31,175 nt of DNA from the IMG/VR virus record IMGVR_UViG_2565956711_000006, positions 1-31,175 of that record; one strand, written 5' to 3'. The position numbers and the translations under genes were made by a program. Under the pieces are notes generated by a model. That model had not been told where the DNA came from, made no database searches, and saw only the letters and a program-made list of their open reading frames with translations. Below are positions 1 to 29,266 of this stretch, piece after piece; within the stretch, counting starts at the first letter, position 1; every line of letters starts with the position of its first letter. The stretch is from a virus. Taxonomy: Duplodnaviria; Heunggongvirae; Uroviricota; Caudoviricetes.

Positions 1-648
1 ATGGAAACAATCATCACCGTTATCGCCGCTGTTGCTGGGATCGCTTTTTGGGTTGGGCTAATCAATCCCAAATGGGTTTTTATGCCAAATCGAAAGCGCT
101 CATCTGCTATATACTTCGGGGTGTGCCTCTTGGCAGCAATCATAGGTTCAATGGTTGCACCAGTCGCGCCGAAAGCTGTTGCTGAAAATAAACCCCAGCC
201 AGCAGTGACAAACACAGAACAAACACAACCCGCGGCTAAACCCAAAGAACAATTAACAACCACTATCGACTTTTCAGAAGCGACTAATCAACTTCCCCTT
301 GCCTTATCCAAGGCGCTCGGAGATCTGAATCTCACAGTTAAACCAGTCATTTACAACAAAGCCTTAGTAGTTGCATTCAATTTTGACAGCATAGAAGAAC
401 TACAGGCGAAAAGTGCCGTTCAGTCCGTATGCATCAGCTATTTCAATCACGGGGAATCTAACAGGGCTTGGAAGGCTGGTTTATTCGATCATATTTATGT
501 GACTAACGACATTTTAACCAAAGGCTACGTTTTTCAGGGCGGTGAATCTTCGTGTGATATCTGGGGCAAAAAGGCCGGGGATAGTGGCGATCAATATTTA
601 AGTGAAAACCTTACACGATCAAGGTTTGTAGCCATAAACATGAAATAA
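1..648 (+). CDS. hypothetical membrane-anchored protein (two N-terminal hydrophobic helices, Pro/Gln/Thr-rich linker, C-terminal globular domain)
   Basis: ORF from ATG at position 1 to TAA 646-648; hydrophobic segments IITVIAAVAGIAFWVGL and IYFGVCLLAAIIGSMVA; no family recognised; visibly more AT-rich than adjacent phage genes; 5' end may be cut by the window edge. Confidence 0.5.
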   Translation: METIITVIAAVAGIAFWVGLINPKWVFMPNRKRSSAIYFGVCLLAAIIGSMVAPVAPKAVAENKPQPAVTNTEQTQPAAKPKEQLTTTIDFSEATNQLPLALSKALGDLNLTVKPVIYNKALVVAFNFDSIEELQAKSAVQSVCISYFNHGESNRAWKAGLFDHIYVTNDILTKGYVFQGGESSCDIWGKKAGDSGDQYLSENLTRSRFVAINMK

Positions 649-651
649 ATA

Positions 652-678
652 AAGGCCCCATTTAGGGGCCGCTTTTAT
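652..678. terminator. bidirectional intrinsic terminator shared by the convergent ORF 1..648 and ogr
   Basis: GC stem GGCCCC (654-659) / GGGGCC (665-670) with 5-nt loop, followed by a T-run on the plus strand (gcttttat) and on the minus strand (tttatttattt). Confidence 0.6.
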
Positions 679-917
679 AATGCCAGCGATAACTGATCTT
701 CGCCGTGGTGACTTCTTGGAAAAGCTTCTTGTGGCACCATCGCGCCGGGCGCTGGCTGGGTCTGGTTTAGTGAACCGTCTATTTCCGTCATGCTGGTGAA
801 ACAGTACCCGCACAACATATTTTGACACTGGTGATAGCTGCGCCGCACAAGCAAACTCAGCTCAACACTGGTTCTGGTTTTTGCTATTGCACGGCAGCGA
901 GGACAGCGCATTGCCAT
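675..917 (-). CDS. ogr: late-gene transcriptional activator, Ogr/Delta zinc-finger family
   Basis: 80-aa product MAMRCPRCRAIAKTRTSV...YHQCQNMLCGYCF with C-X2-C-X22-C-X4-C spacing as in P2 Ogr (recalled); AGGAGG 7 nt upstream of ATG at 917; lies directly downstream of D as in P2. Confidence 0.8.
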   Translation of the reverse strand: MAMRCPRCRAIAKTRTSVELSLLVRRSYHQCQNMLCGYCFTSMTEIDGSLNQTQPAPGAMVPQEAFPRSHHGEDQLSLAL

Positions 918-965: not shown

Positions 966-2084
966 TTAAGACGTTGAATCGTCACTCTCCGCTGTCCAGT
1001 CGTCGATTTTTACTTCCAGTTCCAGCGACGTGGTAAACCCTCCCCCGCCAATATCGTGAACGCACCGCGTTATCGTCCAGTTCCCACTGTCGATCGTGGA
1101 CTTAAAGCCGTAGACGCTGGCGGGCTGTTCCGGGTACAAATCTGCGCGGCCACGCGCCAGGGTGATACTGAACGTCGCCGCTCCACGCTGCAACTCCCGC
1201 CACTTAGCCGCAGCGGCACGCTTCGCCGCCTTTTCCGTCTTGAAGGTTTTACGGATAACAAAAACGTTACCTTCGGCCCCGGCCAGATAATCACCCTCTT
1301 TTTTGCTGGATGCAGGCTCTTTCTTTTTGGCCTGGCTGGTTCGTCGCCTGCGGGTGGTTTTCTTCACGGTAGTGGATGGTTTTTTGCCAAAGTTGAGATC
1401 AAGCCAGTATGCAGTTACGCCTGTGTACGCGTCGCGGTCAGCTACGTTAAACCGATGTTTATCACCGCTTGACCGGACGATCTCGATTACCGGCAGCGGC
1501 TTGCCACTCTGCGTCACTCCCTTGCCCGGCGTGATAAACAGAAGCATACCGTTTTTAATGGTTGCCACCGCGCCCAGCATTTCGGCCATGCGCGTTAAGA
1601 AGCTGATATCTGATTCACTCGTCTGATCAGCGTGGTCTATCTCAATCTTCGCCAGTTCTTCGCTGACGCCCGCACGCAGATCGTAGCGGCTGGCAATGCT
1701 GGCGACCACATCCCCCACGGTAATATCGTGCCAGCTATATTCCCTCTTCACGTTGAAGGTATCGCGGAAATCTGCGCTTCTGGCACTGATCGTTAGCTGG
1801 TCAGGCGGGCCAGCGTGTCCGATTTCGTCAACCGTATACACTCCCTTAAAAACCAATGGATCATTATCCCAGCCCAGCGCCACCGATATCTTTGCGCCGC
1901 GTGATGGTAATGCTACCTGCCCGTCAGCATCATCCAGAGTCAGATCCAGCGTGTCCGCTTCAAAGCCCCGGTTATCTGTCAGAGAAAGGGAGATCAGCCG
2001 GTTATCCAGCGCCGTAAGCTGCTTACCCTCAATCTCAATACTGAACGCCGGGCGCGGCGAATATCGGTTTTCTGTCGTGTCCAT
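966..2084 (-). CDS. D: tail protein gpD (late control gene D family)
   Basis: 372-aa ORF; N-terminus MDTTENRYSPRPAFSIEIEGKQLTALDNRL matches remembered P2 gpD/Mu N-type tail proteins; SD GAAGGAG upstream of ATG 2084; D-ogr order as in P2. Confidence 0.88.
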   Translation of the reverse strand: MDTTENRYSPRPAFSIEIEGKQLTALDNRLISLSLTDNRGFEADTLDLTLDDADGQVALPSRGAKISVALGWDNDPLVFKGVYTVDEIGHAGPPDQLTISARSADFRDTFNVKREYSWHDITVGDVVASIASRYDLRAGVSEELAKIEIDHADQTSESDISFLTRMAEMLGAVATIKNGMLLFITPGKGVTQSGKPLPVIEIVRSSGDKHRFNVADRDAYTGVTAYWLDLNFGKKPSTTVKKTTRRRRTSQAKKKEPASSKKEGDYLAGAEGNVFVIRKTFKTEKAAKRAAAAKWRELQRGAATFSITLARGRADLYPEQPASVYGFKSTIDSGNWTITRCVHDIGGGGFTTSLELEVKIDDWTAESDDSTS

Positions 2085-2151
2085 ATCAACTCCTTCATCA
2101 TGATGGGGTACATCGTCGCCACGCGCGCGCGCATGAACAACGCCCCGTCAT

Positions 2152-2169
2152 TGTTGCAGGTTGCTGACA
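2152..2169. promoter_or_regulatory. TGT-N12-ACA dyad, candidate Ogr-dependent late-promoter activator site, between divergent D and FI
   Basis: tgt tgcaggttgctg aca read directly; centre 2160.5; candidate -10 gatatt at 2207-2212 (FI side) and gatgta on the minus strand at 2109-2114 (D side), each 46.5 bp from the dyad centre. Confidence 0.55.
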
Positions 2170-2241
2170 ACCCTTATTCATCGCATCGGCCTGCCATTGC
2201 CGCAATGATATTCGCAGTCATTAAACTGGCGAGGCAAATAC

Positions 2242-3435
2242 ATGGCCACTAACTACCATCACGGTGTAACCGTCACGGAAACCACCGACCTTAGCACGAT
2301 GATCACCGACATTGATTCGGCGGTGATCGGCGTTGTCTGCACCGCTGATGATGCGGACGAAACAGCGTTCCCGCTGGATACCCCTGTACTGATCACCCGC
2401 GTGGCTAACATGCTGGGCAAGGCAGGTAAAACCGGCACCCTGTTTACCACCCTGAAAGCGATTTCAGACCAGACCAGCCCGCAAACCATTGTGATCCGCG
2501 TTGCTGATGCTGCAAATATCGAACCGCCAGAAGGCGGCACCGCACAGACACAGGATCAACTGGTTATTGGCGGCACCGATGCAAACGGACGCTTTACCGG
2601 CATGTACGCGCTGCTGTCTGCCGAAATGCGCGTAGGCGTGCGCCCGCGTGTGCTGGCTGTTCCCGGTCTTGATACGGAAGCGGTGGCCGCACAACTCGGC
2701 GTCATTGCCGAAAAGCTGCGCGCGTTTGCTTACGTGGCAGCGAACGGCTGCAACAGCATCGCCGAAGTGAAGGAATACCGCGAACAGTTCTCCCAGCGTG
2801 AAATGATGGTTATCTGGCCTAATTTCATCTGCTACGACACCAACGCCGGAGCGAATGCCACCGTGCCCGTGGGTGCCCATGCGGTTGGGATGCGCGCCAA
2901 AATCGACGCAACGCAGGGCTGGCATAAAACCATTTCCAACGTGCCCGTTAATAACGTGCTGGGGATGGATCGGGATATCTATTTCACGTTGCAGGGCACC
3001 GATACCGACGCCGACGAACTGAACGCAGCAGGCGTTACCACGCTGATCAAGCAGGACGGCTACCGCATCTGGGGATCGCGTACCTGCGACGCGGAAACGT
3101 ATATCTTCGAAAGCTATACCCGAACCGCGCAGATCGTTGCGGATACCGTCGCCGAAGCACATTTCGCCTATGTTGATAAACCGCTTACCCCGTCGCTGGT
3201 AAAGGACATTGTGGACGGTATCAATAAGAAGCTGACCTCATATGTGACGGCTGGCAAGCTGCTGGGCGCCCGCTGCTGGTATGACCCGGAACCGAATACC
3301 TCGGAAACCCTGCGCAATGGTCAACTGACCATTAAGTACAACTACACCCCTGTTCCACCGCTGGAAAATCTCAGCCTGGTACAGGAGTTCACCGACGAAT
3401 ATTTCGCTACGTTTTCCAGCGCAGTGAATAACTAA
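2242..3435 (+). CDS. FI: contractile tail sheath protein gpFI
   Basis: 397-aa ORF; MATNYHHGVTVTETTDLSTMI... resembles P2 FI; followed by tube and E/E' genes. Confidence 0.92.
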   Translation: MATNYHHGVTVTETTDLSTMITDIDSAVIGVVCTADDADETAFPLDTPVLITRVANMLGKAGKTGTLFTTLKAISDQTSPQTIVIRVADAANIEPPEGGTAQTQDQLVIGGTDANGRFTGMYALLSAEMRVGVRPRVLAVPGLDTEAVAAQLGVIAEKLRAFAYVAANGCNSIAEVKEYREQFSQREMMVIWPNFICYDTNAGANATVPVGAHAVGMRAKIDATQGWHKTISNVPVNNVLGMDRDIYFTLQGTDTDADELNAAGVTTLIKQDGYRIWGSRTCDAETYIFESYTRTAQIVADTVAEAHFAYVDKPLTPSLVKDIVDGINKKLTSYVTAGKLLGARCWYDPEPNTSETLRNGQLTIKYNYTPVPPLENLSLVQEFTDEYFATFSSAVNN

Positions 3436-3447
3436 CCGGGGGCGCTT

Positions 3448-3963
3448 ATGGCACTGCCTAAGAAACTCAAATATTTCAATATGTTCTTTGACGGGGATAA
3501 CTACTTCGGCATGGTGCCGGAAATCACCCCCGCCAAACTCACCAAAAAAACCGAAGACTACCAGGCGGGCGGTATGCCGGGTTCGGTTGCGGTGGATCTG
3601 GGCTTCGACGCTGGCGCCCTGGATATGGATATCACGCTGGGCGGCATGGATGCAGGGCTAATGAAAAAATGGGGCGTTACCACTGCGGACGGAATGCAGG
3701 TGCGCTTTGCTGGCTCTTACCAGGACGATGCGACCGGCGACGCCGTACCGTGCGAAATCCAGACGCGTGGCCGCTTCACTGAACTGGATCCCGGTTCGGC
3801 AAAGGTTGGGGATGATACTTCGCATAAGTACACCCTGAAAAACACCTATTACAAGCTGACCATCAATAGCGAAGAAATTATCGAAATTGATGTGCTCAAC
3901 ATGATCTACAAAGTTGCCGGTGTGGATGTGCTGGAAAAACACCGCGCTAACATCGGCTTATAA
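3448..3963 (+). CDS. FII: tail tube protein gpFII
   Basis: 171-aa ORF MALPKKLKYFNMFFDGDNYFGMVPEITPA..., P2 FII-like size and position. Confidence 0.9.
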   Translation: MALPKKLKYFNMFFDGDNYFGMVPEITPAKLTKKTEDYQAGGMPGSVAVDLGFDAGALDMDITLGGMDAGLMKKWGVTTADGMQVRFAGSYQDDATGDAVPCEIQTRGRFTELDPGSAKVGDDTSHKYTLKNTYYKLTINSEEIIEIDVLNMIYKVAGVDVLEKHRANIGL

Positions 3964-3977
3964 GGAAACCCGGCACC

Positions 3978-4313
3978 ATGAGCAAGACCAAAGAAAACAC
4001 CGTTATTCTTACCGCCCCTATTACGCGCGGTAAGACCAAAATCACCGAAGTGGCGATCACTTCCGTGCTTAAACAGGCTGGATCACTGCGCGGCTTAAAA
4101 GCCTATGACGTGCTGACGTCCAACTATGACGCGCTGGTTATTCTGCTGCCCCGCGTTACCGCTCCGGCACTAACCGCCGATGAGATTGCCCGAATGGATA
4201 CCTGGGATTTTTGCCAGTTAGCCAACGCGGTGGTTGATTTTTTGCAACCCTCTTCGGATCTGACCGCGACGGATACGGGCAACGAATCATCCGATGCCCC
4301 TGCGAACGCATAG
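3978..4313 (+). CDS. E: tail assembly chaperone gpE (zero-frame product)
   Basis: 111-aa ORF between tube and tape-measure genes; contains slippery TTTTTTG at 4238-4244. Confidence 0.8.
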   Translation: MSKTKENTVILTAPITRGKTKITEVAITSVLKQAGSLRGLKAYDVLTSNYDALVILLPRVTAPALTADEIARMDTWDFCQLANAVVDFLQPSSDLTATDTGNESSDAPANA

Positions 4314-4438
4314 AAGACCTGATGGCAGATATCGCCGTCATATTCCACTGGCGGCCGGTAGAGATGGACGCCATGACGGTACAGGAAATACTGTTATGGC
4401 GTGATCAGGCGGCTGCGCGCAGTGGTGGAGATCACTAA
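3978..4438 (+). CDS. E': tail assembly chaperone gpE+E', predicted programmed -1 frameshift product
   Basis: After T6G (4238-4244) the -1 frame stays open to TAA 4436-4438, encoding ...EDLMADIAVIFHWRPVEMDAMTVQEILLWRDQAAARSGGDH, and ends 1 nt before the tape-measure ATG (4439); canonical chaperone frameshift arrangement. Confidence 0.7.
4238..4244 (+). other. slippery heptamer T TTT TTG for -1 ribosomal frameshift
   Basis: ttttttg read in E frame as ..D-F-L..; the -1 frame is open downstream. Confidence 0.7.
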
Positions 4439-7372
4439 ATGGCAGACCGCAATTTAAATATCAGGGTGGCATTCAGCGCCCTGAATAATATGTCCCGCCC
4501 TGTCAACGCGGCGCGCCAGAGTGCCGCCGCGTTGGCGTCTCAAATCAATCAGACCAAAACCAGCATCAAAGGGCTTGAGCGTCAGGCAACCAGCTTCGAC
4601 CGCCTCACCGCAGCCAATAAAAAAACCACCGAACAACTGGCCCAGGCGAAAGAACAGGCCCGGCAAATGGCGGCGGCTTATGGCCCGTTACGCCAGCGCA
4701 GCGCCGAACAGGTTGCCGCCCTCAATCAGCAACGTGCAGCCATTCGCCAGTTAACCCAGCAGCAGAAAGGTGAGCAGACGCAGCTTAATCAGTTGCGCGC
4801 CAGCTTCTACAGCGAAGGCATTGCGATCCGCAGCGCCAGCCGGGCGACGGAACAGATCAACCAGCGCACTGCGCAATACAATCGCCAGCTTGCCGAACAG
4901 CAGCGACGGCTTGACGCTGTAAACCAGGCGCAGGCCCGTTACAGCCGCGCCAAAGAAACCGGCGAAAAGATGATGAGCGGGGGAATGAAAACCGCCGCAG
5001 TGGGTGCGGCAACCCTCGCACCTGTCGCCGCTGCGGTGAAATCCTACAGCAGTCTTGAAGACGCGATGAAGGGCGTAGCCAAACAGGTAAACGGCTTGCG
5101 TGACGACAGCGGCAACCGCACCCCGCAATATGAAGAAATGCAGCGGGCGATCATGGATGCCAGCGAAAAGCTGCCAATGGCAAACGGTGCTGTTGACTAT
5201 GCCGCCCTGGTCGAAGGCGGCGCACGTATGGGCGTCGCAAACAGCGATGATCCGTGGGAAAAACAAAAAGCCGATCTGCTGTCTTTCGCCAGCATGGCGG
5301 CAAAGGCTTCTGTTGCCTTCGAACTTCCCGCCGACCAGCTTTCTGAAAGTCTCGGTAAGATTGCCGGGCTGTATAAAATCCCAACCCAAAACATTGAACA
5401 GTTAGGCGACGCCATAAACTACCTGGACGATAACGCGAAGTCGAAAGGCTCCGATATTATCGACGTGCTCCAGCGCGTTGGCGGACTTGCCAGCCAACTG
5501 GATTACAAGCAAGCCGCCGCGCTGGGTTCCACCTTTCTGACGCTTGGATCACCTGCCGAAGTTGCCGCCAGCGCAACCAATGCAATGGTGCGCGAACTAT
5601 CGATCGCCACAGTACAAAGCGATAAATTTTTTGGTGCGCTGGATGAAATCGGCGTCAATGCTGAAAAAGTCCAGAAAAGCATGTCAGTGGACGCGATGGG
5701 CACAATCATTTCAGTGCTGGAAGCGTCCAAAAAACTTGCACCAGATAAGCAGGTAGCCAACCTTACTCAAATTTTCGGTAAAGAGTTCGGCGATGATGCG
5801 CAGAAACTTGCGAACAACCTGCCCGAACTACGCCGCCAAATAGAACTGACGCAGGGCGCAGCCGCCAAAGGTTCTATGAATCGGGAATCTGATATCAATA
5901 AAGATTCCCTTTCAGCTCAGTGGCAACTGACCAAAACCGGCGCGGTTAACGCATTGAGTTCAGCAGGGGAAACGCTCCGCGAACCGCTGATGGATATCAT
6001 GCTTACCGTCAGTAAGGTAGTTGGCAGCGTCCGCCGCTGGGTTGAGGCAAATCCGGCTCTGGTTGGCTCAATCATGAAAGTCACCGCAGCCATAGGCGCG
6101 TTGCTGGTTGTCGTGGGTGGCCTGATGCTGACCATCGGCGCAGTGCTCGGCCAGATGGCACTTGTTCGCCTCAGCTTCACCACGTTGGCCGGTGAAGGAG
6201 GAATAGCGCGGCTGACTGGTGGAGTAATGCGCCTGGGTGGTGCATTCCAGTGGCTTGCTGGCTCGCCTATGCAGGCATTGTTAAGCGCCGGTCGCATGGT
6301 ATTCTGCCCGCTTATCACGCTACTGGCTGGCATTTCTGCACCCGTCTGGGGGCTGATTGCTCTCTTTGCTGCGGCAGCAGTGGCCGTCATTAAATTCTGG
6401 GAACCAATACAGGCATTTTTCACTGGTTTCTTTAACGGCATCATGACGGGCTTACAACCTGTATTTGATGCTTTCAACGCTGTTTTCGCTCCATTAGCCC
6501 CAATCTTTGACGCGATAGGCTCCGCTATTAGCGGCGTTTGGGATTGGTTTACAAAATTGCTTGAACCGATCAAATTTTCCAGCGATGCGCTAGAAACTTG
6601 CACTACTGTTGGCGAAACATTTGGGAGGGTTCTGGGTACTGCAATAAGCGGTTTGCTTTGGCCGCTACAAAAACTGATGGAGGGTGTCGGCTGGGTACTG
6701 GAGAAACTTGATCTAATTCCTGCTGGACTTGATGCAGCAAACGCCAAAGCAGAAAGCCTTAAAAAAGATCCCGTTGTCTGGGAGTGGGATCCGCAGCAAA
6801 AGAAAATGGTTAAAAAGGATTGGCACTGGTCGCCGGATAAACCAAACCAACCTAAACCGCCAAAACCACCAATAACTCCGAAGCCAGTTGGCATCCCAGA
6901 CCTTATGGGAGCGCCAAACTTAACGCCGAAGATGAGCAAGAGTCTGGATAAAATCGCAGACAACACGGGAAAAATGGCGGCAAAAGACGGCCCCGGCGAA
7001 ATCGTCTTCAAGAATAAGCAGCCCTATATCCCGATCCGGGGCGGATATTCGGAACCGCTTAAGCAGGCGCAGCGCCAGCTACCATCCCTTACCGATTGGG
7101 TGACGCAGCAGACCGGATCGCTGATCGCTTCCGTTACACCGTGGCAGGTTGAGAAGCCCGCCGCACGGGTTCCCGTTTCGGCGTCGCCCTCTGCGGCTTC
7201 CGTCGCTGCGCTAATGCCTGCGCCGGGTGGCGATGTATATAACCTTAACTTCGACTTTAGCGGCCAGAAACTGGATGAAGAAACCATTATCAGGCGCGTG
7301 CGCGAAGAACTTGCGTTAGCGAAGCAGCAAGCCGACCGGCGCAAGCGTTCCCAACTGACCGATCACGTCTAA
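4439..7372 (+). CDS. T: tail tape measure protein gpT
   Basis: 977-aa ORF, coiled-coil-rich N-terminus, hydrophobic central region, Pro-rich segment; position after E/E'. Confidence 0.9.
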   Translation: MADRNLNIRVAFSALNNMSRPVNAARQSAAALASQINQTKTSIKGLERQATSFDRLTAANKKTTEQLAQAKEQARQMAAAYGPLRQRSAEQVAALNQQRAAIRQLTQQQKGEQTQLNQLRASFYSEGIAIRSASRATEQINQRTAQYNRQLAEQQRRLDAVNQAQARYSRAKETGEKMMSGGMKTAAVGAATLAPVAAAVKSYSSLEDAMKGVAKQVNGLRDDSGNRTPQYEEMQRAIMDASEKLPMANGAVDYAALVEGGARMGVANSDDPWEKQKADLLSFASMAAKASVAFELPADQLSESLGKIAGLYKIPTQNIEQLGDAINYLDDNAKSKGSDIIDVLQRVGGLASQLDYKQAAALGSTFLTLGSPAEVAASATNAMVRELSIATVQSDKFFGALDEIGVNAEKVQKSMSVDAMGTIISVLEASKKLAPDKQVANLTQIFGKEFGDDAQKLANNLPELRRQIELTQGAAAKGSMNRESDINKDSLSAQWQLTKTGAVNALSSAGETLREPLMDIMLTVSKVVGSVRRWVEANPALVGSIMKVTAAIGALLVVVGGLMLTIGAVLGQMALVRLSFTTLAGEGGIARLTGGVMRLGGAFQWLAGSPMQALLSAGRMVFCPLITLLAGISAPVWGLIALFAAAAVAVIKFWEPIQAFFTGFFNGIMTGLQPVFDAFNAVFAPLAPIFDAIGSAISGVWDWFTKLLEPIKFSSDALETCTTVGETFGRVLGTAISGLLWPLQKLMEGVGWVLEKLDLIPAGLDAANAKAESLKKDPVVWEWDPQQKKMVKKDWHWSPDKPNQPKPPKPPITPKPVGIPDLMGAPNLTPKMSKSLDKIADNTGKMAAKDGPGEIVFKNKQPYIPIRGGYSEPLKQAQRQLPSLTDWVTQQTGSLIASVTPWQVEKPAARVPVSASPSAASVAALMPAPGGDVYNLNFDFSGQKLDEETIIRRVREELALAKQQADRRKRSQLTDHV

Positions 7373-7382
7373 GGGCAATATC

Positions 7383-7832
7383 ATGATGATGATTCTGGGG
7401 ATGTTCCCCTTTTCACTGCAAACCACGCCTTACCAGAGTGCGAATAAAACCAACTCATGGCGGCACGTCAAAAACGATCGCGTGGGGAAATCCCCGCGCT
7501 ATCAGTTCATCGGCGCTGATGAAGAACCGTTCGTACTCAGCGGCACGCTGTACCCCGAAATAAGCGGCGGTGATGTGTCGCTTGTCATGCTGGAAACTAT
7601 GGCTTTTTCCGGGCGCCCGTGGCCCCTGATTGAAGGCACGGGCAGGATCTACGGCATGTATGTAATTGAGCAGATTACGCAAAACCGGACGGAATTTTTT
7701 AAGGACGGGAAGGCAAAGAAAATTGATTTTACGCTCAACCTGAAACGGGTAAGCGAGGACATACGGGAAAAGCTGGCGGAAATCACCAATGATGATGTGC
7801 TGTCTATGGTGAAAGCGGGGGTGAATTTCTAA
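7383..7832 (+). CDS. U: tail protein gpU
   Basis: 149-aa ORF MMMILGMFPFSLQTTPYQSANKTNSWRHV... immediately after T. Confidence 0.85.
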   Translation: MMMILGMFPFSLQTTPYQSANKTNSWRHVKNDRVGKSPRYQFIGADEEPFVLSGTLYPEISGGDVSLVMLETMAFSGRPWPLIEGTGRIYGMYVIEQITQNRTEFFKDGKAKKIDFTLNLKRVSEDIREKLAEITNDDVLSMVKAGVNF

Positions 7833-7943
7833 CTTTATTTTTTATGGCCAATACGTTCATTGTTGGCAGTGTGGTACCGAAATCTTCGGGCACCGTCACT
7901 TTTAACCGTGCTACAGCACGGTCATTTATGGCGGTGCTGTAGC

Positions 7944-7969
7944 TTCTATCAAAGGTTGGTTTGGGAGAA
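7944..7969. repeat. hix/gix-like 26-bp crossover site (left end of invertible tail-fibre segment)
   Basis: ttctatcaaagg tt ggtttgggagaa; inner 14 bp (7956-7969) is the exact reverse complement of 9791-9804. Confidence 0.7.
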
Positions 7970-8290
7970 GCGGCAAAACGGAATGTGGGAACAGGGGAAA
8001 ATCAGATACCTGATATGTCATCATATGCATCAGGTTCAGGCTGGCGAAAAATGCCAGATGGTTCAATTGAACAGTGGGGACGAATTAGTTTTCCTGGTGA
8101 ACACGGGCCTGTATCCGCCAATGTTTCATTCCCGATTCCATTTACACAGACACCGGGCATTGTAATTGTGTGCGATGGTGGTTTCGGGGGCGGGAATATG
8201 TGGGGGGCGACCAACTGGAGCACTACCGGCTTCATAGCTCACTGCAATTATGGTCTTGAAGGTGGTGCGTTTTTCGCTAAGGGCTGGTAA
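7958..8290 (+). CDS. alternative tail-fibre C-terminal exon (Hv'), silent in this orientation, no start codon of its own
   Basis: Frame open from the crossover site: [16 protein letters not shown]...[20 protein letters not shown]; shares LGLGE junction with H; stop TAA 8288-8290 overlaps the G' ATG. Confidence 0.7.
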
Positions 8291-8733
8291 TGATGAAATA
8301 TCTGTACGTAAACAACCTGGCATATCCTTACGAACTTCAGTCTCTTTATGTTGAAAAAGGTGAATGGCCTGAAGAAAAAGGTGTTGATATAGACGAAGTA
8401 ATTTTCAGGGAATATTTCTATGACACACCACCAGAAGGAAAATACAGATGTGTTGGAGAAGATGGACTGCCTGCATGGGCAGATATTCCTCCACCAACAC
8501 GTGAAGAACAAATTGCATCAGCCGAAACTAAAAAGCAGCAATTGATTAACCAGGCCAACGAATACATCAACAGTAAACAATGGCCAGGTAAAGCATCAAT
8601 TGGTCGTCTGAAAGGTGAGGAACTGGCGCAATATAATTTGTGGCTGGATTATCTGGACGCACTGGAGCTGGTCGATACTTCCAGTGCGCCAGATATTGAA
8701 TGGCCTACGCCTCCGGCAGTTCAGGCCAGATGA
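8290..8733 (+). CDS. alternative tail-fibre assembly chaperone (G'/Tfa')
   Basis: 147 aa; C-terminal LDALELVDTSSAPDIEWP parallels IDAVTATDTSTAPDVIWP of the minus-strand G; converges with and overlaps the 3' end of G. Confidence 0.8.
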   Translation: MMKYLYVNNLAYPYELQSLYVEKGEWPEEKGVDIDEVIFREYFYDTPPEGKYRCVGEDGLPAWADIPPPTREEQIASAETKKQQLINQANEYINSKQWPGKASIGRLKGEELAQYNLWLDYLDALELVDTSSAPDIEWPTPPAVQAR

Positions 8734-9307
8734 CATCCGGCGCGGTGCTGGTATCTGTTGCCGTCACCGCGTCAATGTAATTCAGCACAGCGTTAAGTCG
8801 GGTGTTTTCTGTCTGCATCAGCTTCCGCCCGGCCTGTAATTTCAGTTGAATCAGACTAATGGAAGCCATTGCAGTATCAATCAGTGACTGACGCTGTGCT
8901 TCTGCCGCGCCTACTGCGGCGCTATGCTGTGCCTCGGTATCCGTCACCCATTTCTCACCATCCCATTCATCGTATGGCGTTAATGGGGCGATAGTGGTTG
9001 TATTTTCAGGGTAATCACCCGGAACTGTGATTTCTTTGGTATCTCCCGTTTCGGTACTATAGACAACTTCACCGCGATGGTCTGGCACATATTCCCATGA
9101 ATTTAAATCTACAGAGCGACAGATTGCATAACCAGCTTTATGTGTACCTGGTGCATCCAGACAGGAACATGCCGGGATACCGACGCCGACAGCGAGATAT
9201 TCAGTTGATGTAGAAATATATTCCCGCGTTTCGCCATCATAGTTATGTACGATGATTTCCCCATCATTTAAAGCGTAACCGTCTTTTCCCAAAATAGCCT
9301 GTTCCAT
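8705..9307 (-). CDS. G: tail-fibre assembly chaperone gpG (expressed orientation)
   Basis: 200-aa ORF starting immediately after the H stop; conserved Tfa C-terminal motif. Confidence 0.85.
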   Translation of the reverse strand: MEQAILGKDGYALNDGEIIVHNYDGETREYISTSTEYLAVGVGIPACSCLDAPGTHKAGYAICRSVDLNSWEYVPDHRGEVVYSTETGDTKEITVPGDYPENTTTIAPLTPYDEWDGEKWVTDTEAQHSAAVGAAEAQRQSLIDTAMASISLIQLKLQAGRKLMQTENTRLNAVLNYIDAVTATDTSTAPDVIWPELPEA

Positions 9308-10852
9308 TTATGCAGCCCTCACAATGTAGTTAAATGCAATGTTTCGCGGGCTACCATCACCGGCGCCGGAACTGACATGATTGGTTCTATCCATTCGTTT
9401 ACTGTCATTTGTTGTTCCACTCCCATCCTTCCACGAATACAATAACCCGCCATCGCCAATGCTCAACTGCACCGCAAATACGGATGAACCGGATGAATAA
9501 ACATCTCCAGCCATGAGTGGGTTCCCTGTCCATCCATGCATTTCATGGTTATGTTCAAGGATAGATGCTGCCTGACTTGAAAGCAGCAGTCTCGCGGAAT
9601 CAACACCTCGCCCATCATCCCACCCGCGAATAAACTCACCGCGCAAATCCGGTAATTTTAACTTTGGGTAAGCCTTTGCCAGTTTTGGGTACTCTTCGGC
9701 AGAAAAAGGTGCACCGTTGCATTTCAGCCAGCCTGTTGGTGGTGTGGCTGAAGGCCACGGAACAGGCACACCAACGGGTAACGCTGAGCCTTCTCCCAAA
9801 CCAAGGTATTGGAGAATGCCGTTAACTGTCTTTCCCGATAAATCAGTTAAAGTGCTATCAAGCGGCTGCTTACCCGCCAGCGCATTCGTTACAGTGGTGG
9901 CAAAGTTTGGATCATTTCCCAGCGCTGCCGCCAATTCATTCAGCGTGTCCAGTGCAGCCGGGGATGATGCTACCAGTGCAGCAATTGCTGATTTCACAAA
10001 TTCCGTTGTGGCAATCTGCGTATTATTCACTGTCTGCGCCGCAGTAGGTGCGGTGGGTGTTCCGGTCATAGCTGGGCTTGCCAGCGGAGCTTTCAACGCA
10101 AGAGCGTTGTTAATGGTTGCACTGAAATTAGGATCATTGTTGATTGCAGTAGCAATTTCTTTCAGTGTATCCAACGTGGCGGGCGCACCTCCAATCACAG
10201 CAACCAACGCCGCCTGAACAAATGCGGTATTCGCCAGCTGTGTGGAGTTATTACCAGCCGTAGCAGTCGGCGCTGTAGGCGTTCCCGTCAGGGCCGGGCT
10301 TGCCTTTGGTGCATATTGTTTATGAGGGTCTGCCGCTGCGATGTGCGCCGCCAGTTGCTGATCTACGAAGGCTTTAACCTGGATTATCTGGTCATCAACA
10401 TACTGACGAGTCGCCAGTACTACCGAAGGGTCAATTTTCAGCGTCACGGCGGCGGTGCTGCTGACAATCAGGATCATGCGTACAACCTGTACGCGCCCGC
10501 TTCCCTCCTGTAACTGCGGCTTATACGTTTCCGCACAGTTGGCTACGGCAATCATATCGCCGTCTTTATCGAATAAACCGATTTCACGGATCCACCACCC
10601 GCCCTCGTCTTCAGGTATCACCTGCTCGGCAATAATCTGGTTGGCGTTATTCGGGTCAATGCTCAGACTATTAAGCGGCTTGCGGCGCAGCTCATGAACC
10701 AGCGCCGTTTGTGCCGGGTTCGGCGTCGGCAACACGCCGTTACCATCGCCTACAGCCATCTTGGTGATTTCAACCTGCGCACCCAATGCCGTGGCATTTG
10801 CCAGTTTCGCCGCGCCCACATTGGTTAGCACGGCATAATATTTAGTCGCCAC
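9308..10852 (-). CDS. H: tail fibre protein gpH (constant N-terminal part plus currently joined variable tip Hv)
   Basis: N-terminal region resembles P2 H (..AVLTNVGAAKLANATALGAQVEITKMAVGDG..); C-terminal tip has tail-collar-like motifs (PWP..GWLKCNGAPFS..LPDLRGEFIRGWDDGRGVD); the track starts at TTG 10873, but GTG at 10852 with GGAG upstream aligns better with the P2 H start. Confidence 0.85.
   Translation of the reverse strand: MATKYYAVLTNVGAAKLANATALGAQVEITKMAVGDGNGVLPTPNPAQTALVHELRRKPLNSLSIDPNNANQIIAEQVIPEDEGGWWIREIGLFDKDGDMIAVANCAETYKPQLQEGSGRVQVVRMILIVSSTAAVTLKIDPSVVLATRQYVDDQIIQVKAFVDQQLAAHIAAADPHKQYAPKASPALTGTPTAPTATAGNNSTQLANTAFVQAALVAVIGGAPATLDTLKEIATAINNDPNFSATINNALALKAPLASPAMTGTPTAPTAAQTVNNTQIATTEFVKSAIAALVASSPAALDTLNELAAALGNDPNFATTVTNALAGKQPLDSTLTDLSGKTVNGILQYLGLGEGSALPVGVPVPWPSATPPTGWLKCNGAPFSAEEYPKLAKAYPKLKLPDLRGEFIRGWDDGRGVDSARLLLSSQAASILEHNHEMHGWTGNPLMAGDVYSSGSSVFAVQLSIGDGGLLYSWKDGSGTTNDSKRMDRTNHVSSGAGDGSPRNIAFNYIVRAA
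9791..9816. repeat. hix/gix-like 26-bp crossover site inside H (right end of invertible segment)
   Basis: ttctcccaaacc aa ggtattggagaa, near-perfect palindrome; encodes ILQYLGLGE in the H frame; resembles remembered hixL/gix sites. Confidence 0.7.
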
Positions 10853-11456
10853 TTGCGATCTCCACGGTGTCAATTAAATGGATTGCCGCCCCGGTGTAAT
10901 CATCACCGCCCACGGCTATGGTTTCAGGAAAATACGGGTACACGGTTAGCGTATCGCCGGAATAACTGCCCGCGCCGATATACAGATCGCCGGTTGTTTG
11001 CAGGTGAAGAGACATTCCCAGCATATGACGGCTGCACGGCTTCACATCGGCGATCAGGCGTTCAAGTTCCTGATAGGTTTCTTCACTAATGCCCTGGTCT
11101 TCCACGCCAATATCCAGCGTGAAGGTGCCCGGTGCGGTGTCGATGTTCCACCACTCGTTAACCCGGATGAAGAAGCCGAACGGCTCCACAACCCGGCGCA
11201 TGGCGCCCGTTGTACCCTTGTACTTATGCAGGTAAAACGCATCGGCCACCGCCTTTCGTTTTGTGTTTATCGGCCAGGCCTCATCCCAGCGATCAACGGA
11301 GAAGGCCCACGCCAGATAGGGCAACAGATCAGCCCGACACGTCCACGGGTTCCACAACTGGCGCAGCGGCACGGGCACTTCACCCAACGACGCACAGACG
11401 CGCGCGGCGACGCGCTCCATTCGGCTGGCGCTGGGTGGTAACAGGTCATTACTCAT
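10842..11456 (-). CDS. I: baseplate assembly protein gpI
   Basis: ORF after J; ATG at 11456 (MSNDLLPP...) overlaps the J stop; position and size fit P2 I. Confidence 0.8.
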   Translation of the reverse strand: MSNDLLPPSASRMERVAARVCASLGEVPVPLRQLWNPWTCRADLLPYLAWAFSVDRWDEAWPINTKRKAVADAFYLHKYKGTTGAMRRVVEPFGFFIRVNEWWNIDTAPGTFTLDIGVEDQGISEETYQELERLIADVKPCSRHMLGMSLHLQTTGDLYIGAGSYSGDTLTVYPYFPETIAVGGDDYTGAAIHLIDTVEIASGD

Positions 11457-27622: not shown

Positions 27623-27805
27623 TTACTGGTGATCCGCTGATTGGTTAGCTGACTTGAGGGCAGGCCAGACAAGGAGAAGAAGAGCGCCAACGAAGAAGGC
27701 GTCGCCAATCACCGAAAGCAGGTAGCTGGTGAAATCCACTGCTACGACCATGAAGGCCAACAGCAGGGCCAGCGCCGGACGTAGTGAATCCAGCACGCGC
27801 AGCAT
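27623..27805 (-). CDS. small hydrophobic protein with two predicted TM helices (60 aa)
   Basis: MLRVLDSLRPALALLLAFMVVAVDFTSYLLSVIGDAFFVGALLLLVWPAL; ATG overlaps the TerB-like stop (TGATG). Confidence 0.55.
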   Translation of the reverse strand: MLRVLDSLRPALALLLAFMVVAVDFTSYLLSVIGDAFFVGALLLLVWPALKSANQSADHQ

Positions 27806-28239
27806 CAGAGATAATCCTCAACACGCAGCCCCAGACGGCGCCCGACCTCTTCCAGCACCTTCTGTTCTTCTGGTTCGATCTGGCCGTCCGCTTCGGCGAT
27901 AGTCAGCATGTTGACGAAGACTTCTTCGGCTTCTTTCGGATCGTTTTTGATGTCGTCGATTTCGCGCAAAATGTTCATGCGGCCAACGCGGAAGCCAGCT
28001 TCAAGCTGTTCCGTATAGCGGTTGATGGTGGATGTAATTTCATTGCCGAAATGCGCAAGGCGCGGGTTAGAGCGGATAAGCTGATCCAGCTTGCTGGTTT
28101 CTTCTTTTTCGATCTCGCCATCGGCGGCAGATACCAAAAGACAACCGCCGACAATAGCTTCCATAAGATCGCGATTTTCCACTTTCTTAAGTTCAACTTT
28201 TGCCGCTGCTACTTTTTTTCCAAACAGTTTATTAAACAT
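27805..28239 (-). CDS. TerB-like domain protein
   Basis: Start at ATG 28239 (MFNKLFGKK..); two repeats of the TerB-type helical motif (..GGCLLVSAADGEIEKEE.. and ..TIAEADGQIEPEEQKVL..) resembling remembered TerB; the plus-strand antisense ORF 27784..28257 is low-complexity. Confidence 0.65.
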   Translation of the reverse strand: MFNKLFGKKVAAAKVELKKVENRDLMEAIVGGCLLVSAADGEIEKEETSKLDQLIRSNPRLAHFGNEITSTINRYTEQLEAGFRVGRMNILREIDDIKNDPKEAEEVFVNMLTIAEADGQIEPEEQKVLEEVGRRLGLRVEDYL

Positions 28240-28274
28240 GCTATTTATCCTTTTTAGGATGAGTGAAAGCGCCA

Positions 28275-28290
28275 TCACTTAATTAAGTGA
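28275..28290. promoter_or_regulatory. 16-bp perfect palindrome, candidate operator
   Basis: tcacttaattaagtga is its own reverse complement; sits in the AT-rich gap 36-51 bp upstream of the TerB-like start. Confidence 0.4.
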
Positions 28291-28333
28291 CGACAGTGAA
28301 GACTGTTTTTTAATTACTATTTAACTGACGTTG

Positions 28334-28564
28334 TTAGCCGATTAAATCTCTCAAAGAATTAACAAGGTTAAAAAGCAATCCTTTGTTTATCTTCTTCGTA
28401 TAAACAAAGGGCTTACTCATTCCCTTAATAAATTGAACCTTGCTAGGCTCAGGTTTAAAGAATTGCCCGTCTGGTGTTTCCAGCCAGCCGCGTGAGTTTT
28501 TGAAGTGTGTAAACTGGCACCCGTGCTTAAGCAGGCTTGCCAGTGATGGGCCTTCATCGTGCAT
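28334..28564 (-). CDS. hypothetical protein (76 aa)
   Basis: ATG 28564 (MHDEGPSLASLLKHG...) with SD AGGGGG 6 nt upstream. Confidence 0.5.
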   Translation of the reverse strand: MHDEGPSLASLLKHGCQFTHFKNSRGWLETPDGQFFKPEPSKVQFIKGMSKPFVYTKKINKGLLFNLVNSLRDLIG

Positions 28565-28805
28565 TACTGCCCCCTTGCTTATACATCTGATCAACCGTGC
28601 GCATGGCTTCCGCTAAAGCAAAGTCACGCCCGTAATAATCGCCATTGCTGGAAATACGATAAGAGTGCTTAAACGTAAATGGATTACGCGGGCATTTCTG
28701 AATAGTGAAGCCACGATATAAATATGAATGACGACTTAACTGTATTAATTGCACAGCCACAAAAGCCCCCTCACATTCCCAATTTAAGCAATTCACCATC
28801 AACAT
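28554..28805 (-). CDS. hypothetical protein (83 aa), weakly supported
   Basis: Fills the gap between the flanking small genes but has no SD before either candidate ATG (28805/28799). Confidence 0.3.
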   Translation of the reverse strand: MLMVNCLNWECEGAFVAVQLIQLSRHSYLYRGFTIQKCPRNPFTFKHSYRISSNGDYYGRDFALAEAMRTVDQMYKQGGSNAR

Positions 28806-28974
28806 GGCGGGCCACGTCTTTGGTTATTTTCTTAATCAGCTTTTTATCCCTGATCATAAACTCGCCGCTATTGGTGCGAATCATGAAGCCCGTTTGCATA
28901 TCTTTTAAATGGGTGTCCAGAATGTCGTTGCATTCACGCACCCGGTTTTCGTGGTTGGCTGTTTTCTGGCTCAT
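28771..28974 (-). CDS. hypothetical protein (67 aa) immediately downstream of cox
   Basis: ATG 28974 (MSQKTANHENRVRECNDILD...) with SD GAGG; occupies the position of P2 orf78. Confidence 0.5.
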   Translation of the reverse strand: MSQKTANHENRVRECNDILDTHLKDMQTGFMIRTNSGEFMIRDKKLIKKITKDVARHVDGELLKLGM

Positions 28975-28984
28975 CGCGATAACC

Positions 28985-29266
28985 TCAAAGACCGATCCAC
29001 AGCAACCAAGCGTCGCGCTGCTCTCTCGGACGGTTGTAGTAGGCGTCACGCATTGCGCGGTTGAACTCAGGAATATAGATCCAGTTCTCAGCACGGGCGC
29101 CCAGGCTGTCCGGGTTCTTCCACGGGATGATCGGCAACTTACCGTCTTCAATCATGCTCTTAACCGTGGCGGGCTTCTTACCGATTAACTCGGCAAATTT
29201 AGGGTATGGAACCGCGTCAACGGCATGACGCACTTCAATGAACCCCTCTAACTCTTTGTCTGTCAT
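28985..29266 (-). CDS. cox: Cox/Apl-type excisionase and early-promoter regulator
   Basis: Start at ATG 29266 (MTDKELEGF..) with SD GAGAGGTGA; ..VPYPKFAELIGKKPATVKSMIEDGKLPII..RDAWLLWIGL resembles remembered P2 Cox. Confidence 0.72.
   Translation of the reverse strand: MTDKELEGFIEVRHAVDAVPYPKFAELIGKKPATVKSMIEDGKLPIIPWKNPDSLGARAENWIYIPEFNRAMRDAYYNRPREQRDAWLLWIGL

What the first reader, a model, noticed from the sequence alone, without database searches (positions are those of the whole stretch)
1..680. AT-rich membrane-anchored gene convergent with ogr at the prophage edge
ORF 1-648 encodes a protein with two N-terminal TM helices, a Pro/Gln/Thr-rich linker and an unrecognised C-terminal domain. 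It is more AT-rich than the phage genes and shares a bidirectional terminator with ogr only 26 bp away. It could be a prophage-end moron or the first flanking host gene; the attachment site cannot be placed without the other end.
Basis: partly seen in the sequence, partly recalled or inferred. Interest (0 to 1): 0.5.

Follow-up and report, generated by a model that had tools for sequence, protein, structure and literature searches.

The report
Prophage cargo gene: membrane-anchored Orf97 chimera
The gene at 1-648 is not a host gene but optional cargo carried just inside the end of a P2-family prophage; it encodes a membrane-anchored protein facing the periplasm, whose anchor comes from the phage 186 Orf97 family (reported to block phage infection) and whose outer domain is different and uncharacterised.

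Summary
These are the 215-aa ORF, two N-terminal TM helices, a Pro/Gln/Thr linker, an unannotated C-terminal domain, 44% GC against 54% for the phage, and a hairpin shared with ogr in a 26-bp gap.

The open question, moron or host gene, is settled. A 45-bp att core (the cpxP terminator) lies 164-208 bp upstream of window position 1. A circular 32.3-kb copy of the same phage carries int-attP-ORF1-ogr. 4593 of 5426 E. coli genomes have the uninterrupted fieF-cpxP site, and only 5 carry the gene.

Within this phage lineage the attP-ogr slot is a variable cargo site with at least five states:
- empty
- ORF1
- a true Orf97 orthologue
- a lipoprotein
- a Zn-ribbon + TagO pair

ORF1 is a chimera. Residues 1-57 are the conserved two-TM module of phage 186 Orf97. 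Residues ~86-215 belong to a rare family (PHROG 3807) that otherwise occurs as Sec-secreted 130-aa proteins just downstream of cI in 186-like prophages.

No fold or family match gives a function. My best inference is an envelope-level phage-exclusion protein, held with moderate confidence. It is an ordinary kind of element in a new domain combination.

The parts
1..648 (+). ORF1 coding sequence (215 aa plus stop). It is a prophage cargo gene identical to RefSeq WP_016246766.1, annotated 'hypothetical protein'.
   Evidence: dN/dS 0.11; GC 44.1%
1..171 (+). N-terminal two-TM hairpin module (residues 1-57) with a basic loop, NPKWVFMPNRKRSS. It is homologous to the N-terminus of phage 186 Orf97 (PHROG 3403).
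   Evidence: BLASTP: 39% identity, E=2e-17 to 186 Orf97. 61% identity to the Orf97-type allele in the same slot. phrog_3403 E=2.6e-18 over residues 1-76. Hydropathy. Invariant columns.
172..255 (+). Pro/Gln/Thr/Ala/Lys-rich linker (residues ~58-85), predicted disordered. The sequence is not conserved between alleles.
   Evidence: pLDDT 30-35; alignment A1/A3
256..645 (+). C-terminal alpha/beta domain (residues ~86-215), with Cys144 invariant in the alignments and Cys185 conserved in nearly all homologues, assigned to PHROG 3807. It is predicted to be periplasmic, because stand-alone homologues carry Sec signal peptides.
654..670 (.). Bidirectional intrinsic-terminator hairpin shared by ORF1 (+) and ogr (-). 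It marks the downstream end of the cargo cassette; homology to empty-slot phages resumes at 674.
675..917 (-). ogr late-gene activator (80 aa), the first core phage gene next to the cargo slot.
   Evidence: Pfam Ogr_Delta E=1.5e-13. 100% identical to the ogr protein of a sister prophage, annotated there as WP_001251454.1.

Best explanation
SHOWN. ORF1 is an accessory (moron-type) gene of a P2-family prophage close to Salmonella phages SEN4/SEN5 (Senquatrovirus). The prophage is integrated at the cpxP terminator, between fieF and cpxP. ORF1 lies inside the element, in a variable cargo slot between attP/attR and ogr. It sits on a cassette of about 750 bp bounded by a strong upstream hairpin and a downstream bidirectional terminator.

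SHOWN. The protein is a chimera. Its first ~57 residues are the conserved two-TM hairpin of the phage 186 Orf97 family. Its last ~130 residues belong to an unrelated, rare family that otherwise exists as Sec-secreted proteins of about 130 aa, encoded directly after the cI repressor gene of 186-like prophages.

INFERRED (about 0.8). The basic loop faces the cytoplasm. The linker and C-terminal domain face the periplasm, tethered to the inner membrane.

INFERRED (about 0.4). It acts at the cell envelope of the lysogen to block infection by other phages, i.e. superinfection exclusion at or after adsorption, probably at DNA entry. The conserved membrane hairpin would supply a common membrane function and the exchangeable periplasmic domain would supply specificity.

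The confidence given below is for the whole statement, including the functional part. The structural and genomic part alone stands at about 0.95.
For: Inside the phage:
- att core and attL/attR/attP reconstruction.
- The circular phage record carries int-attP-ORF1-ogr.
- The empty attB is present in 4593 of 5426 genomes, while the gene is in only 5 genomes.

Variable slot. In 28 E. coli genomes with >=95% identical ogr+D, the slot takes these states:
- empty
- ORF1
- an Orf97 orthologue with 49% full-length identity to 186 Orf97
- a lipoprotein, as in SEN5
- a Zn-ribbon + TagO pair

Cassette limits come from alignment to an empty-slot relative. Homologues at 57% identity occupy the same position in Citrobacter and Enterobacter prophages.

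Chimera: N-module homology. The two C-terminal domains are unrelated (hhalign probability 0.06%).

Periplasmic location: stand-alone homologues have signal peptides and the domain's two cysteines (the first invariant, the second in most). The TM1-TM2 loop carries four positive charges.

Function:
- The GenBank record of phage 186 annotates Orf97 with 'expression from plasmid blocks 186 infection'.
- Stand-alone homologues sit co-directionally just after cI, which is a lysogenically expressed position.
- Three of the four cargo types seen in the slot (ORF1, the Orf97 orthologue, the lipoprotein) are predicted envelope proteins; the Zn-ribbon + TagO pair was not examined.
- The gene is under purifying selection.
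Against: No experiment bears on this protein.
- The Orf97 phenotype is known only from a database note. It may depend on Orf97's C-terminal domain, which ORF1 lacks.
- 186 orf97 is SOS-induced together with tum, so it is not a constitutive lysogen gene. ORF1 sits in a different regulatory context.
- No sigma-70-like promoter was found upstream on the + strand. Expression in the lysogen is therefore unproven.
- There is no hit to any PADLOC defence model.
- There is no structural relative of known function.
- The AlphaFold model rests on only 18 sequences (mean pLDDT 67).
Confidence: 0.45

Rival explanations
1. ORF1 is a lysogenic-conversion or fitness factor acting on the host envelope for a purpose other than phage exclusion. 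Examples would be protection against a periplasm-acting toxin (bacteriocin or T6SS effector), stress tolerance, or host-interaction functions.
For: It has the same anatomy: prophage cargo, periplasm-facing, AT-rich. One alternative cargo in the same slot is annotated as T6SS-associated TagO. No defence-system model matches.
Against: The only functional note for any relative concerns a block to phage infection. In every locus examined the N-module sits in a P2-family prophage, and so do the three stand-alone C-domain homologues whose context was looked up. Neither was seen in a chromosomal toxin/immunity or T6SS locus.
Confidence: 0.3
2. ORF1 serves the phage's own lytic cycle or induction. It might modify the envelope of induced cells, prevent re-adsorption or re-injection of progeny, or modulate lysis. 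In that case it would be expressed on induction rather than in the stable lysogen.
For: In phage 186 and its relatives the Orf97 gene is in the LexA-controlled SOS operon with the antirepressor tum, so it is switched on at induction. No constitutive promoter was detected upstream of ORF1.
Against: The gene is dispensable for the phage. Sister prophages have the slot empty or filled with unrelated genes. The window has no tum and no LexA-type operon. The cassette is insulated by hairpins on both sides.
Confidence: 0.15
3. ORF1 is the first flanking host gene, outside attR.
For: None remains after testing. The original grounds were only its position at the window edge and its lower GC content.
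Against: The att core lies beyond ORF1, on the fieF side. The gene is carried on the circular phage record. It is absent from 5421 of 5426 E. coli genomes, whereas the fieF-cpxP junction is universal.
Confidence: 0.01
4. ORF1 is a decaying, non-functional recombination product left by cassette exchange.
For: It is a chimera found in few genomes.
Against: dN/dS is 0.11. Intact orthologues at 57% identity persist at the same position in Citrobacter and Enterobacter. A strong SD sequence and a terminator are retained.
Confidence: 0.04

Closest known systems
Phage 186 Orf97 (NP_052294.1; PHROG 3403), second gene of the LexA-controlled p95 tum-orf97 SOS operon
   Same: The N-terminal two-TM module, with the motif GLI-P--V-MP-RK-SS, is homologous. 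Identity is 39% to 186 Orf97 and 61% to the Orf97 orthologue that occupies the very same attP-ogr slot in sister prophages. The overall plan is the same: membrane hairpin, low-complexity linker, then a domain with two cysteines. Both are carried by P2-family phages and are dispensable cargo.
   Different: The C-terminal domain is unrelated (hhalign probability 0.06%) and shorter. The gene lies next to ogr and attP, not after tum. The window has no LexA operon and no tum. The reported phenotype of Orf97 (blocks 186 infection when expressed from a plasmid) has not been tested for this protein.
PHROG 3807 proteins: Sec-secreted proteins of about 130 aa in 186-like prophages of Serratia and Gibbsiella (e.g. 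EGO53_12760 of S. liquefaciens)
   Same: They are homologous to residues ~86-215 (profile E about 1e-38 to 1e-45; 26-34% identity) and share the domain's cysteines (the first invariant, the second in nearly all). They are prophage cargo at a prophage edge.
   Different: They have a cleavable signal peptide instead of the Orf97 membrane hairpin and linker. They lie directly after the cI repressor gene, sometimes as two tandem paralogues followed by a small YdcA-like secreted protein. Their function is unknown.
Classical P2 morons and non-essential genes (old, tin, Z/fun) and the cargo hotspots of P2-like phages (PMC9122126; bioRxiv 10.64898/2026.02.27.708500)
   Same: These are AT-rich, dispensable genes inserted between core genes of P2-family phages. 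They vary between close relatives and several of them exclude other phages.
   Different: The slot differs. It lies between attP and ogr, not between gpA and the portal gene, or after the tail-fibre genes. There is no sequence similarity and no match to a known defence system.
Membrane-anchored superinfection-exclusion proteins (T4 Imm/Sp, HK97 gp15, P22 SieA, lactococcal Sie2009). This comparison is from general knowledge and was not tested here.
   Same: They are small phage-encoded inner-membrane proteins with an extracytoplasmic part that block DNA entry. This is the proposed way of working.
   Different: No sequence or fold similarity was detected. The resemblance is architectural only.

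Membership tests
Phage 186 Orf97 family (PHROG 3403) | Homologous N-terminal two-TM module with a conserved basic loop | tested here: met
   BLASTP E=2e-17, 39% identity. phrog_3403 E=2.6e-18 over profile positions 1-75 of 243. Invariant residues listed.
Phage 186 Orf97 family (PHROG 3403) | Orf97 C-terminal domain (profile positions ~76-243) | tested here: not met
   The PHROG match stops at residue 76. hhalign of the two C-domain alignments gives probability 0.06%.
Phage 186 Orf97 family (PHROG 3403) | Position downstream of tum in a LexA-controlled operon between gene A and cos | tested here: not met
   ORF1 lies between attP and ogr. There is no tum in the window. True Orf97 orthologues also occur in the ogr slot, so this feature does not hold across the whole family.
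Phage 186 Orf97 family (PHROG 3403) | Expression blocks phage infection | not testable with these tools
   Only the GenBank feature note for 186 orf97 is available. The original paper is not held in the library.
PHROG 3807 secreted-domain family | Homologous alpha/beta domain of about 115 aa; first cysteine invariant, second conserved in nearly all members | tested here: met
   phrog_3807 E=1.8e-6. phmmer E 1e-20 to 1e-22 to stand-alone members. Alignments.
PHROG 3807 secreted-domain family | Cleavable Sec signal peptide, free periplasmic protein | tested here: not met
   ORF1 has no basic n-region (it starts MET...). Instead it has two TM segments plus a linker. Stand-alone members have typical signal peptides.
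Moron (autonomous cargo cassette in a phage genome) | Present or absent between otherwise near-identical phages, inserted between two core features | tested here: met
   Empty-slot relatives and four alternative contents. Cassette limits are window -76 to 673.
Moron (autonomous cargo cassette in a phage genome) | Base composition deviates from the phage | tested here: met
   GC 44.1% against 54.1%; GC3 0.42 against 0.53-0.71 for the other tabulated phage genes except tail fibre H at 0.50.
Moron (autonomous cargo cassette in a phage genome) | Own terminator | tested here: met
   Hairpin at 654-670. Each alternative cargo has a different hairpin at this place.
Moron (autonomous cargo cassette in a phage genome) | Own promoter, expressed from the repressed prophage | tested here: inconclusive
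   No + strand sigma-70 consensus match upstream. The 53-nt leader between the upstream hairpin and the ATG is nearly invariant across genera, but it also abuts the attP P' arm. No expression data are available.
Known anti-phage defence or superinfection-exclusion systems | Sequence or fold similarity to a described system | tested here: not met

The most novel reading that the evidence does not exclude
The Orf97-type membrane hairpin would be the conserved working part of a modular phage-exclusion device. It might, for example, engage a host inner-membrane component or the incoming phage's DNA-injection machinery. The periplasmic domains would be interchangeable specificity modules that prophages swap by recombination within the linker. 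On this reading ORF1 shows that a normally free secreted prophage protein (PHROG 3807) can be recruited as a new specificity head. That would link two uncharacterised prophage protein families into one system.
Probability: 0.15. Interest if true: 0.6.

Novelty: new variant of a known kind. Interest (0 to 1): 0.3.

Why it matters
The result places the prophage boundary exactly: attR lies just outside the window and the gene is phage cargo.

It also identifies the attP-ogr junction of SEN4-like P2-family phages as a small cargo hotspot. At least five interchangeable contents occur there, three of them predicted envelope proteins.

The gene gives a natural domain-swap pair. The same membrane anchor and leader carry either the Orf97 domain or the PHROG 3807 domain. 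That pair would be a convenient handle for finding out what the long-unexplained 186 Orf97 protein and the cI-linked secreted proteins do.

If the gene excludes phages, it would matter for phage-host range prediction in Enterobacteriaceae. Otherwise it is one more ordinary prophage accessory gene.

Tried and rejected
- DNA search of 1-680 against 50,697 phage records found nothing, so no sequenced phage carries this allele.
- A protein search with the 59-aa N-module alone returned only one fragment. A scan of GTDB genomes was used instead.
- The afdb50 fold library was unavailable.
- A profile search of PDB sequences found nothing.
- The idea that the ORF1 and Orf97 C-terminal domains are distant homologues was suggested by a few aligned columns. 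hhalign rejected it.
- The idea that the SEN5 lipoprotein is related to the Orf97 C-terminal subdomain (shared M-D-S-K and NA-G motifs seen by eye) was not supported by hhalign.
- By eye I found no LexA box and no P2 late-promoter dyad (TGT-N12-ACA) at a usable distance in the upstream sequence shown. The consensus promoter scan was negative on the + strand.
- The original 186 SOS-operon paper (Brumby et al. 1996) is not held in the library.

Full report
**1. What is in the sequence**

Positions 1-648 (+) form an ATG-initiated ORF of 215 aa. The nearest in-frame stop upstream ends 15 nt before position 1. A GGAGG Shine-Dalgarno sequence lies 7 nt before the ATG. The start at position 1 is therefore the real start.

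Hydropathy gives two membrane-spanning segments, about residues 3-21 and 37-57. They are separated by the loop NPKWVFMPNRKRSSA, which carries four positive charges. Residues ~58-85 are rich in Pro, Gln, Thr, Ala and Lys. Residues ~86-215 form a compact alpha/beta domain in the AlphaFold model, with pLDDT 79-89 over most of the domain. The linker scores about 30.

ORF1 is 44.1% GC (GC3 0.42). The rest of the window is 54.1% GC, and apart from tail fibre H (0.50) the other phage genes tabulated have GC3 of 0.53-0.71.

The convergent ORF at 675-917 (-) is ogr (Pfam Ogr_Delta, E=1.5e-13). The 26-bp gap between the two stop codons contains the hairpin GGCCCC-ATTTA-GGGGCC at 654-670, with T-rich tails in both directions. 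Its folding energy is -15.3 kcal/mol.

**2. Phage gene or host gene**

The window is a complete P2-family prophage read from the attR side (ORF1, ogr, D...) to int. Its first 6680 nt are identical to the chromosome of E. coli EC09. There fieF lies 286 bp to the left of ORF1. cpxP follows int on the right.

A 45-bp direct repeat, GATAAAAAAAACCCCCACATCATGTGGGGGAAGACAGGGATGGTG, occurs at two places. One copy is 164-208 bp upstream of window position 1. The other is 108 bp after the int stop codon. It contains the terminator hairpin of cpxP.

A circular 32,330-bp record from strain 2020N21-246-1 carries the same phage in the order int - 315 bp - ORF1 - ogr. That 315-bp interval is exactly the left part of attL, plus the core, plus the right part of attR. 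It is therefore attP.

The attB reconstructed by removing the prophage is contiguous in 4593 of 5426 complete E. coli genomes. ORF1 occurs in only 5 genomes.

ORF1 is therefore phage DNA, 163 bp inside attR. The host-gene alternative is refuted.

**3. A variable cargo slot**

Twenty-eight E. coli genomes carry ogr+D at >=95% identity to the window. In these sister prophages the interval between the attP P' arm and ogr takes one of these forms:
- empty
- ORF1
- a 237-aa gene that is a genuine orthologue of phage 186 Orf97, with 49% identity over the full length (7 genomes)
- a 127-aa lipoprotein gene on the other strand, as in the sequenced Salmonella phages SEN4/SEN5, the closest phage records (10 genomes)
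- a two-gene cassette annotated as a zinc-ribbon protein plus TagO

Alignment with an empty-slot relative puts the cassette limits at 77 nt upstream of position 1 and at position 673.

The cassette starts with a 13-bp-stem hairpin followed by a T run (-25.3 kcal/mol, z = -5.5). Compensatory changes between alleles preserve that stem. The cassette ends with the bidirectional hairpin. Each alternative cargo brings a different hairpin to that position.

Orthologues of ORF1 at 57% identity occupy the same place, fieF | ORF | ogr | D, in Citrobacter freundii and Enterobacter hormaechei. dN/dS against a 93.6%-identical E. coli allele is 0.11. The gene is therefore maintained by selection.

**4. What the protein is**

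No Pfam, NCBIfam or PADLOC model matches. PHROGs splits the protein in two. Residues 1-76 match positions 1-75 of the 243-position phrog_3403 profile (E=2.6e-18). Residues 98-203 match phrog_3807 (E=1.8e-6). Both PHROGs are of unknown function.

*N-terminal module.* phrog_3403 is the family of phage 186 Orf97. BLASTP gives 39% identity over the N-terminal module to 186 Orf97 (E=2e-17). It gives 61% identity to the Orf97-type allele in the same slot. The invariant residues are concentrated in the loop: F16, G19-L20-I21, P23, V26, M28-P29, R31-K32, S34-S35. That is more conservation than a passive anchor needs.

*C-terminal domains compared.* The C-terminal domains of ORF1 and Orf97 are unrelated (hhalign probability 0.06%).

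*C-terminal domain family.* An exhaustive HMMER search of 1.84 billion representatives with the ORF1 C-terminal domain found only 12 clusters. Most are proteins of 127-145 aa that begin with a typical Sec signal peptide and keep the domain's cysteines, the first one in every sequence.

Three of these were placed in their genomes. Each lies in a 186-like prophage of Serratia or Gibbsiella, immediately downstream of and co-directional with the cI repressor gene, at the prophage edge. In Serratia there are two tandem paralogues followed by a small YdcA-like secreted protein.

*N-module elsewhere.* In the GTDB species representatives the N-module is otherwise always joined to the Orf97 domain. That gene lies either after A and tum, as in phage 186, or in the ogr slot.

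ORF1 is thus a rare chimera. It has the leader and membrane hairpin of the slot's Orf97-type gene. Its periplasmic head is replaced by a PHROG 3807 domain that has lost its signal peptide.

**5. Topology and fold**

Two lines of evidence place the C-terminal domain in the periplasm, tethered to the inner membrane by the flexible linker. One is the positive-inside rule applied to the basic loop. The other is the signal peptides of the free homologues. This is inference, not measurement.

**6. How it most likely works**

The only functional statement for any relative is the GenBank feature note on 186 orf97: 'expression from plasmid blocks 186 infection'. The original paper could not be read.

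Four other observations point the same way:
- The gene is dispensable prophage cargo.
- The protein is exposed to the periplasm.
- Free homologues sit right after cI.
- Three of the four cargo types seen in the slot are predicted envelope proteins.

The best-supported reading is therefore a superinfection-exclusion type protein acting at the envelope. I give this about 0.4.

The rivals are:
- an envelope conversion or fitness factor unrelated to phage (0.3)
- a role in the phage's own induction or lysis, as the SOS control of 186 orf97 might suggest (0.15)
- a decaying remnant (0.04)
- a host gene (0.01)

Several weaknesses remain. No + strand promoter was found upstream. The Orf97 phenotype may reside in the domain that ORF1 lacks. 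No expression data exist.

**7. Comparison with what is known, and verdict**

This is a moron in the classical sense: composition, own terminator, and presence or absence among near-identical phages are all met. Its own promoter is unresolved.

It is only half a member of the Orf97 family, and half a member of PHROG 3807. It is best called a new domain-swap variant of a known, poorly understood kind of P2-family accessory protein.

The slot between attP and ogr is not among the P2 hotspots named in PMC9122126. It is also absent from the passage of the 2026 preprint (10.64898/2026.02.27.708500) that I retrieved, which lists gpA-portal, int-att, int-primase, within the late genes, and downstream of gpL.

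Integration at cpxP-fieF is already known for a P2-like prophage (Wphi1) of E. coli W (PMC3032704).

Nothing here would surprise a phage specialist. The useful outcomes are the exact boundary, the hotspot, and a natural domain-swap pair for studying Orf97. Interest is 0.3.

Noticed in passing
L002 (NZ_JBQJRQ010000002.1, 1-32330) and NZ_CM125665.1 around 4989974: E. coli strain 2020N21-246-1 has this phage both integrated in the chromosome and as a separate circular 32,330-bp record with an intact attP. The prophage therefore appears to excise and replicate spontaneously, or to be present as a tandem copy. Either way it looks like an active phage.
   Followed up: partly
window 2085-2241 and 966-7832: The tail genes FI-FII-E-T-U (2242-7832, + strand) are divergent from D and ogr (966-2084 and 675-917, - strand). 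In P2 itself (from my own knowledge, not checked here) these genes all run in one direction. Salmonella phage SEN5 shows the same split, so it is a feature of this lineage.
   Followed up: partly
window 7860-10873: The tail-fibre region has two facing sets. A tail-fibre C-terminal fragment (Gp53-like_C) plus an assembly gene lie on the + strand. An assembly gene plus the fibre gene H lie on the - strand. Window 8429-9229 matches the circular relative L002 in inverted orientation. L002 has a recombinase (invertase) gene after U that the window lacks. This looks like a Mu G-segment-like invertible host-range switch that is frozen in this copy.
   Followed up: partly
window 27805-29000: This is the second AT-rich island of the window (GC about 40% at 28000-28600), in the early operon downstream of cox. 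It includes a 157-aa TerB-domain protein (27805-28278, -, Pfam TerB E=3e-14), next to Fil and DUF4761 homologues. The TerB gene may be another cargo gene.
   Followed up: partly
L016 3682-5010 (NZ_OY754834.1): In one E. coli isolate an IS4 element is inserted between the ORF1 allele and ogr. It separates the two genes that share the terminator in the window.
   Followed up: no
window 675-917; L001 6837-6917: The RefSeq annotation of EC09 marks ogr as a partial pseudogene of 27 codons. Yet the ORF is intact (80 aa) and its translation is 100% identical to the ogr protein of sister prophage EcPF16, annotated there as WP_001251454.1. This is probably an annotation artefact.
   Followed up: partly
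L001 5838-5923 and L003 1482-1588 (outside the window, on both sides of the att core): Both arms of attP carry a tandem repeat of the type GTCTACA-N4-G(A/T)CTACAC: TCGTCTACATTTTGACTACAC in the P' arm and TTGTCTACATCTTGTCTACAC in the P arm. These are plausible arm-type binding sites for the integrase.
   Followed up: no
L017 3031-3414 (SEN5_30) and 186 Orf97 residues ~100-160 of its C-terminal domain: The lipoprotein that fills the same slot in SEN4/SEN5 shares short motifs with the Orf97 C-terminal domain, seen by eye (SMxDxxSxK[FH] ... G-x-NA-x-x-[FY]G[GA]). hhalign did not support homology, so the resemblance remains unexplained.
   Followed up: partly
L010 7567-8625 (Serratia liquefaciens CP033893): The 186-like prophages of Serratia that carry the free PHROG 3807 proteins show no integrase gene after cI. 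The order is cI, two secreted paralogues, a YdcA-like peptide, then apparently host genes. The way this prophage ends was not examined.
   Followed up: no
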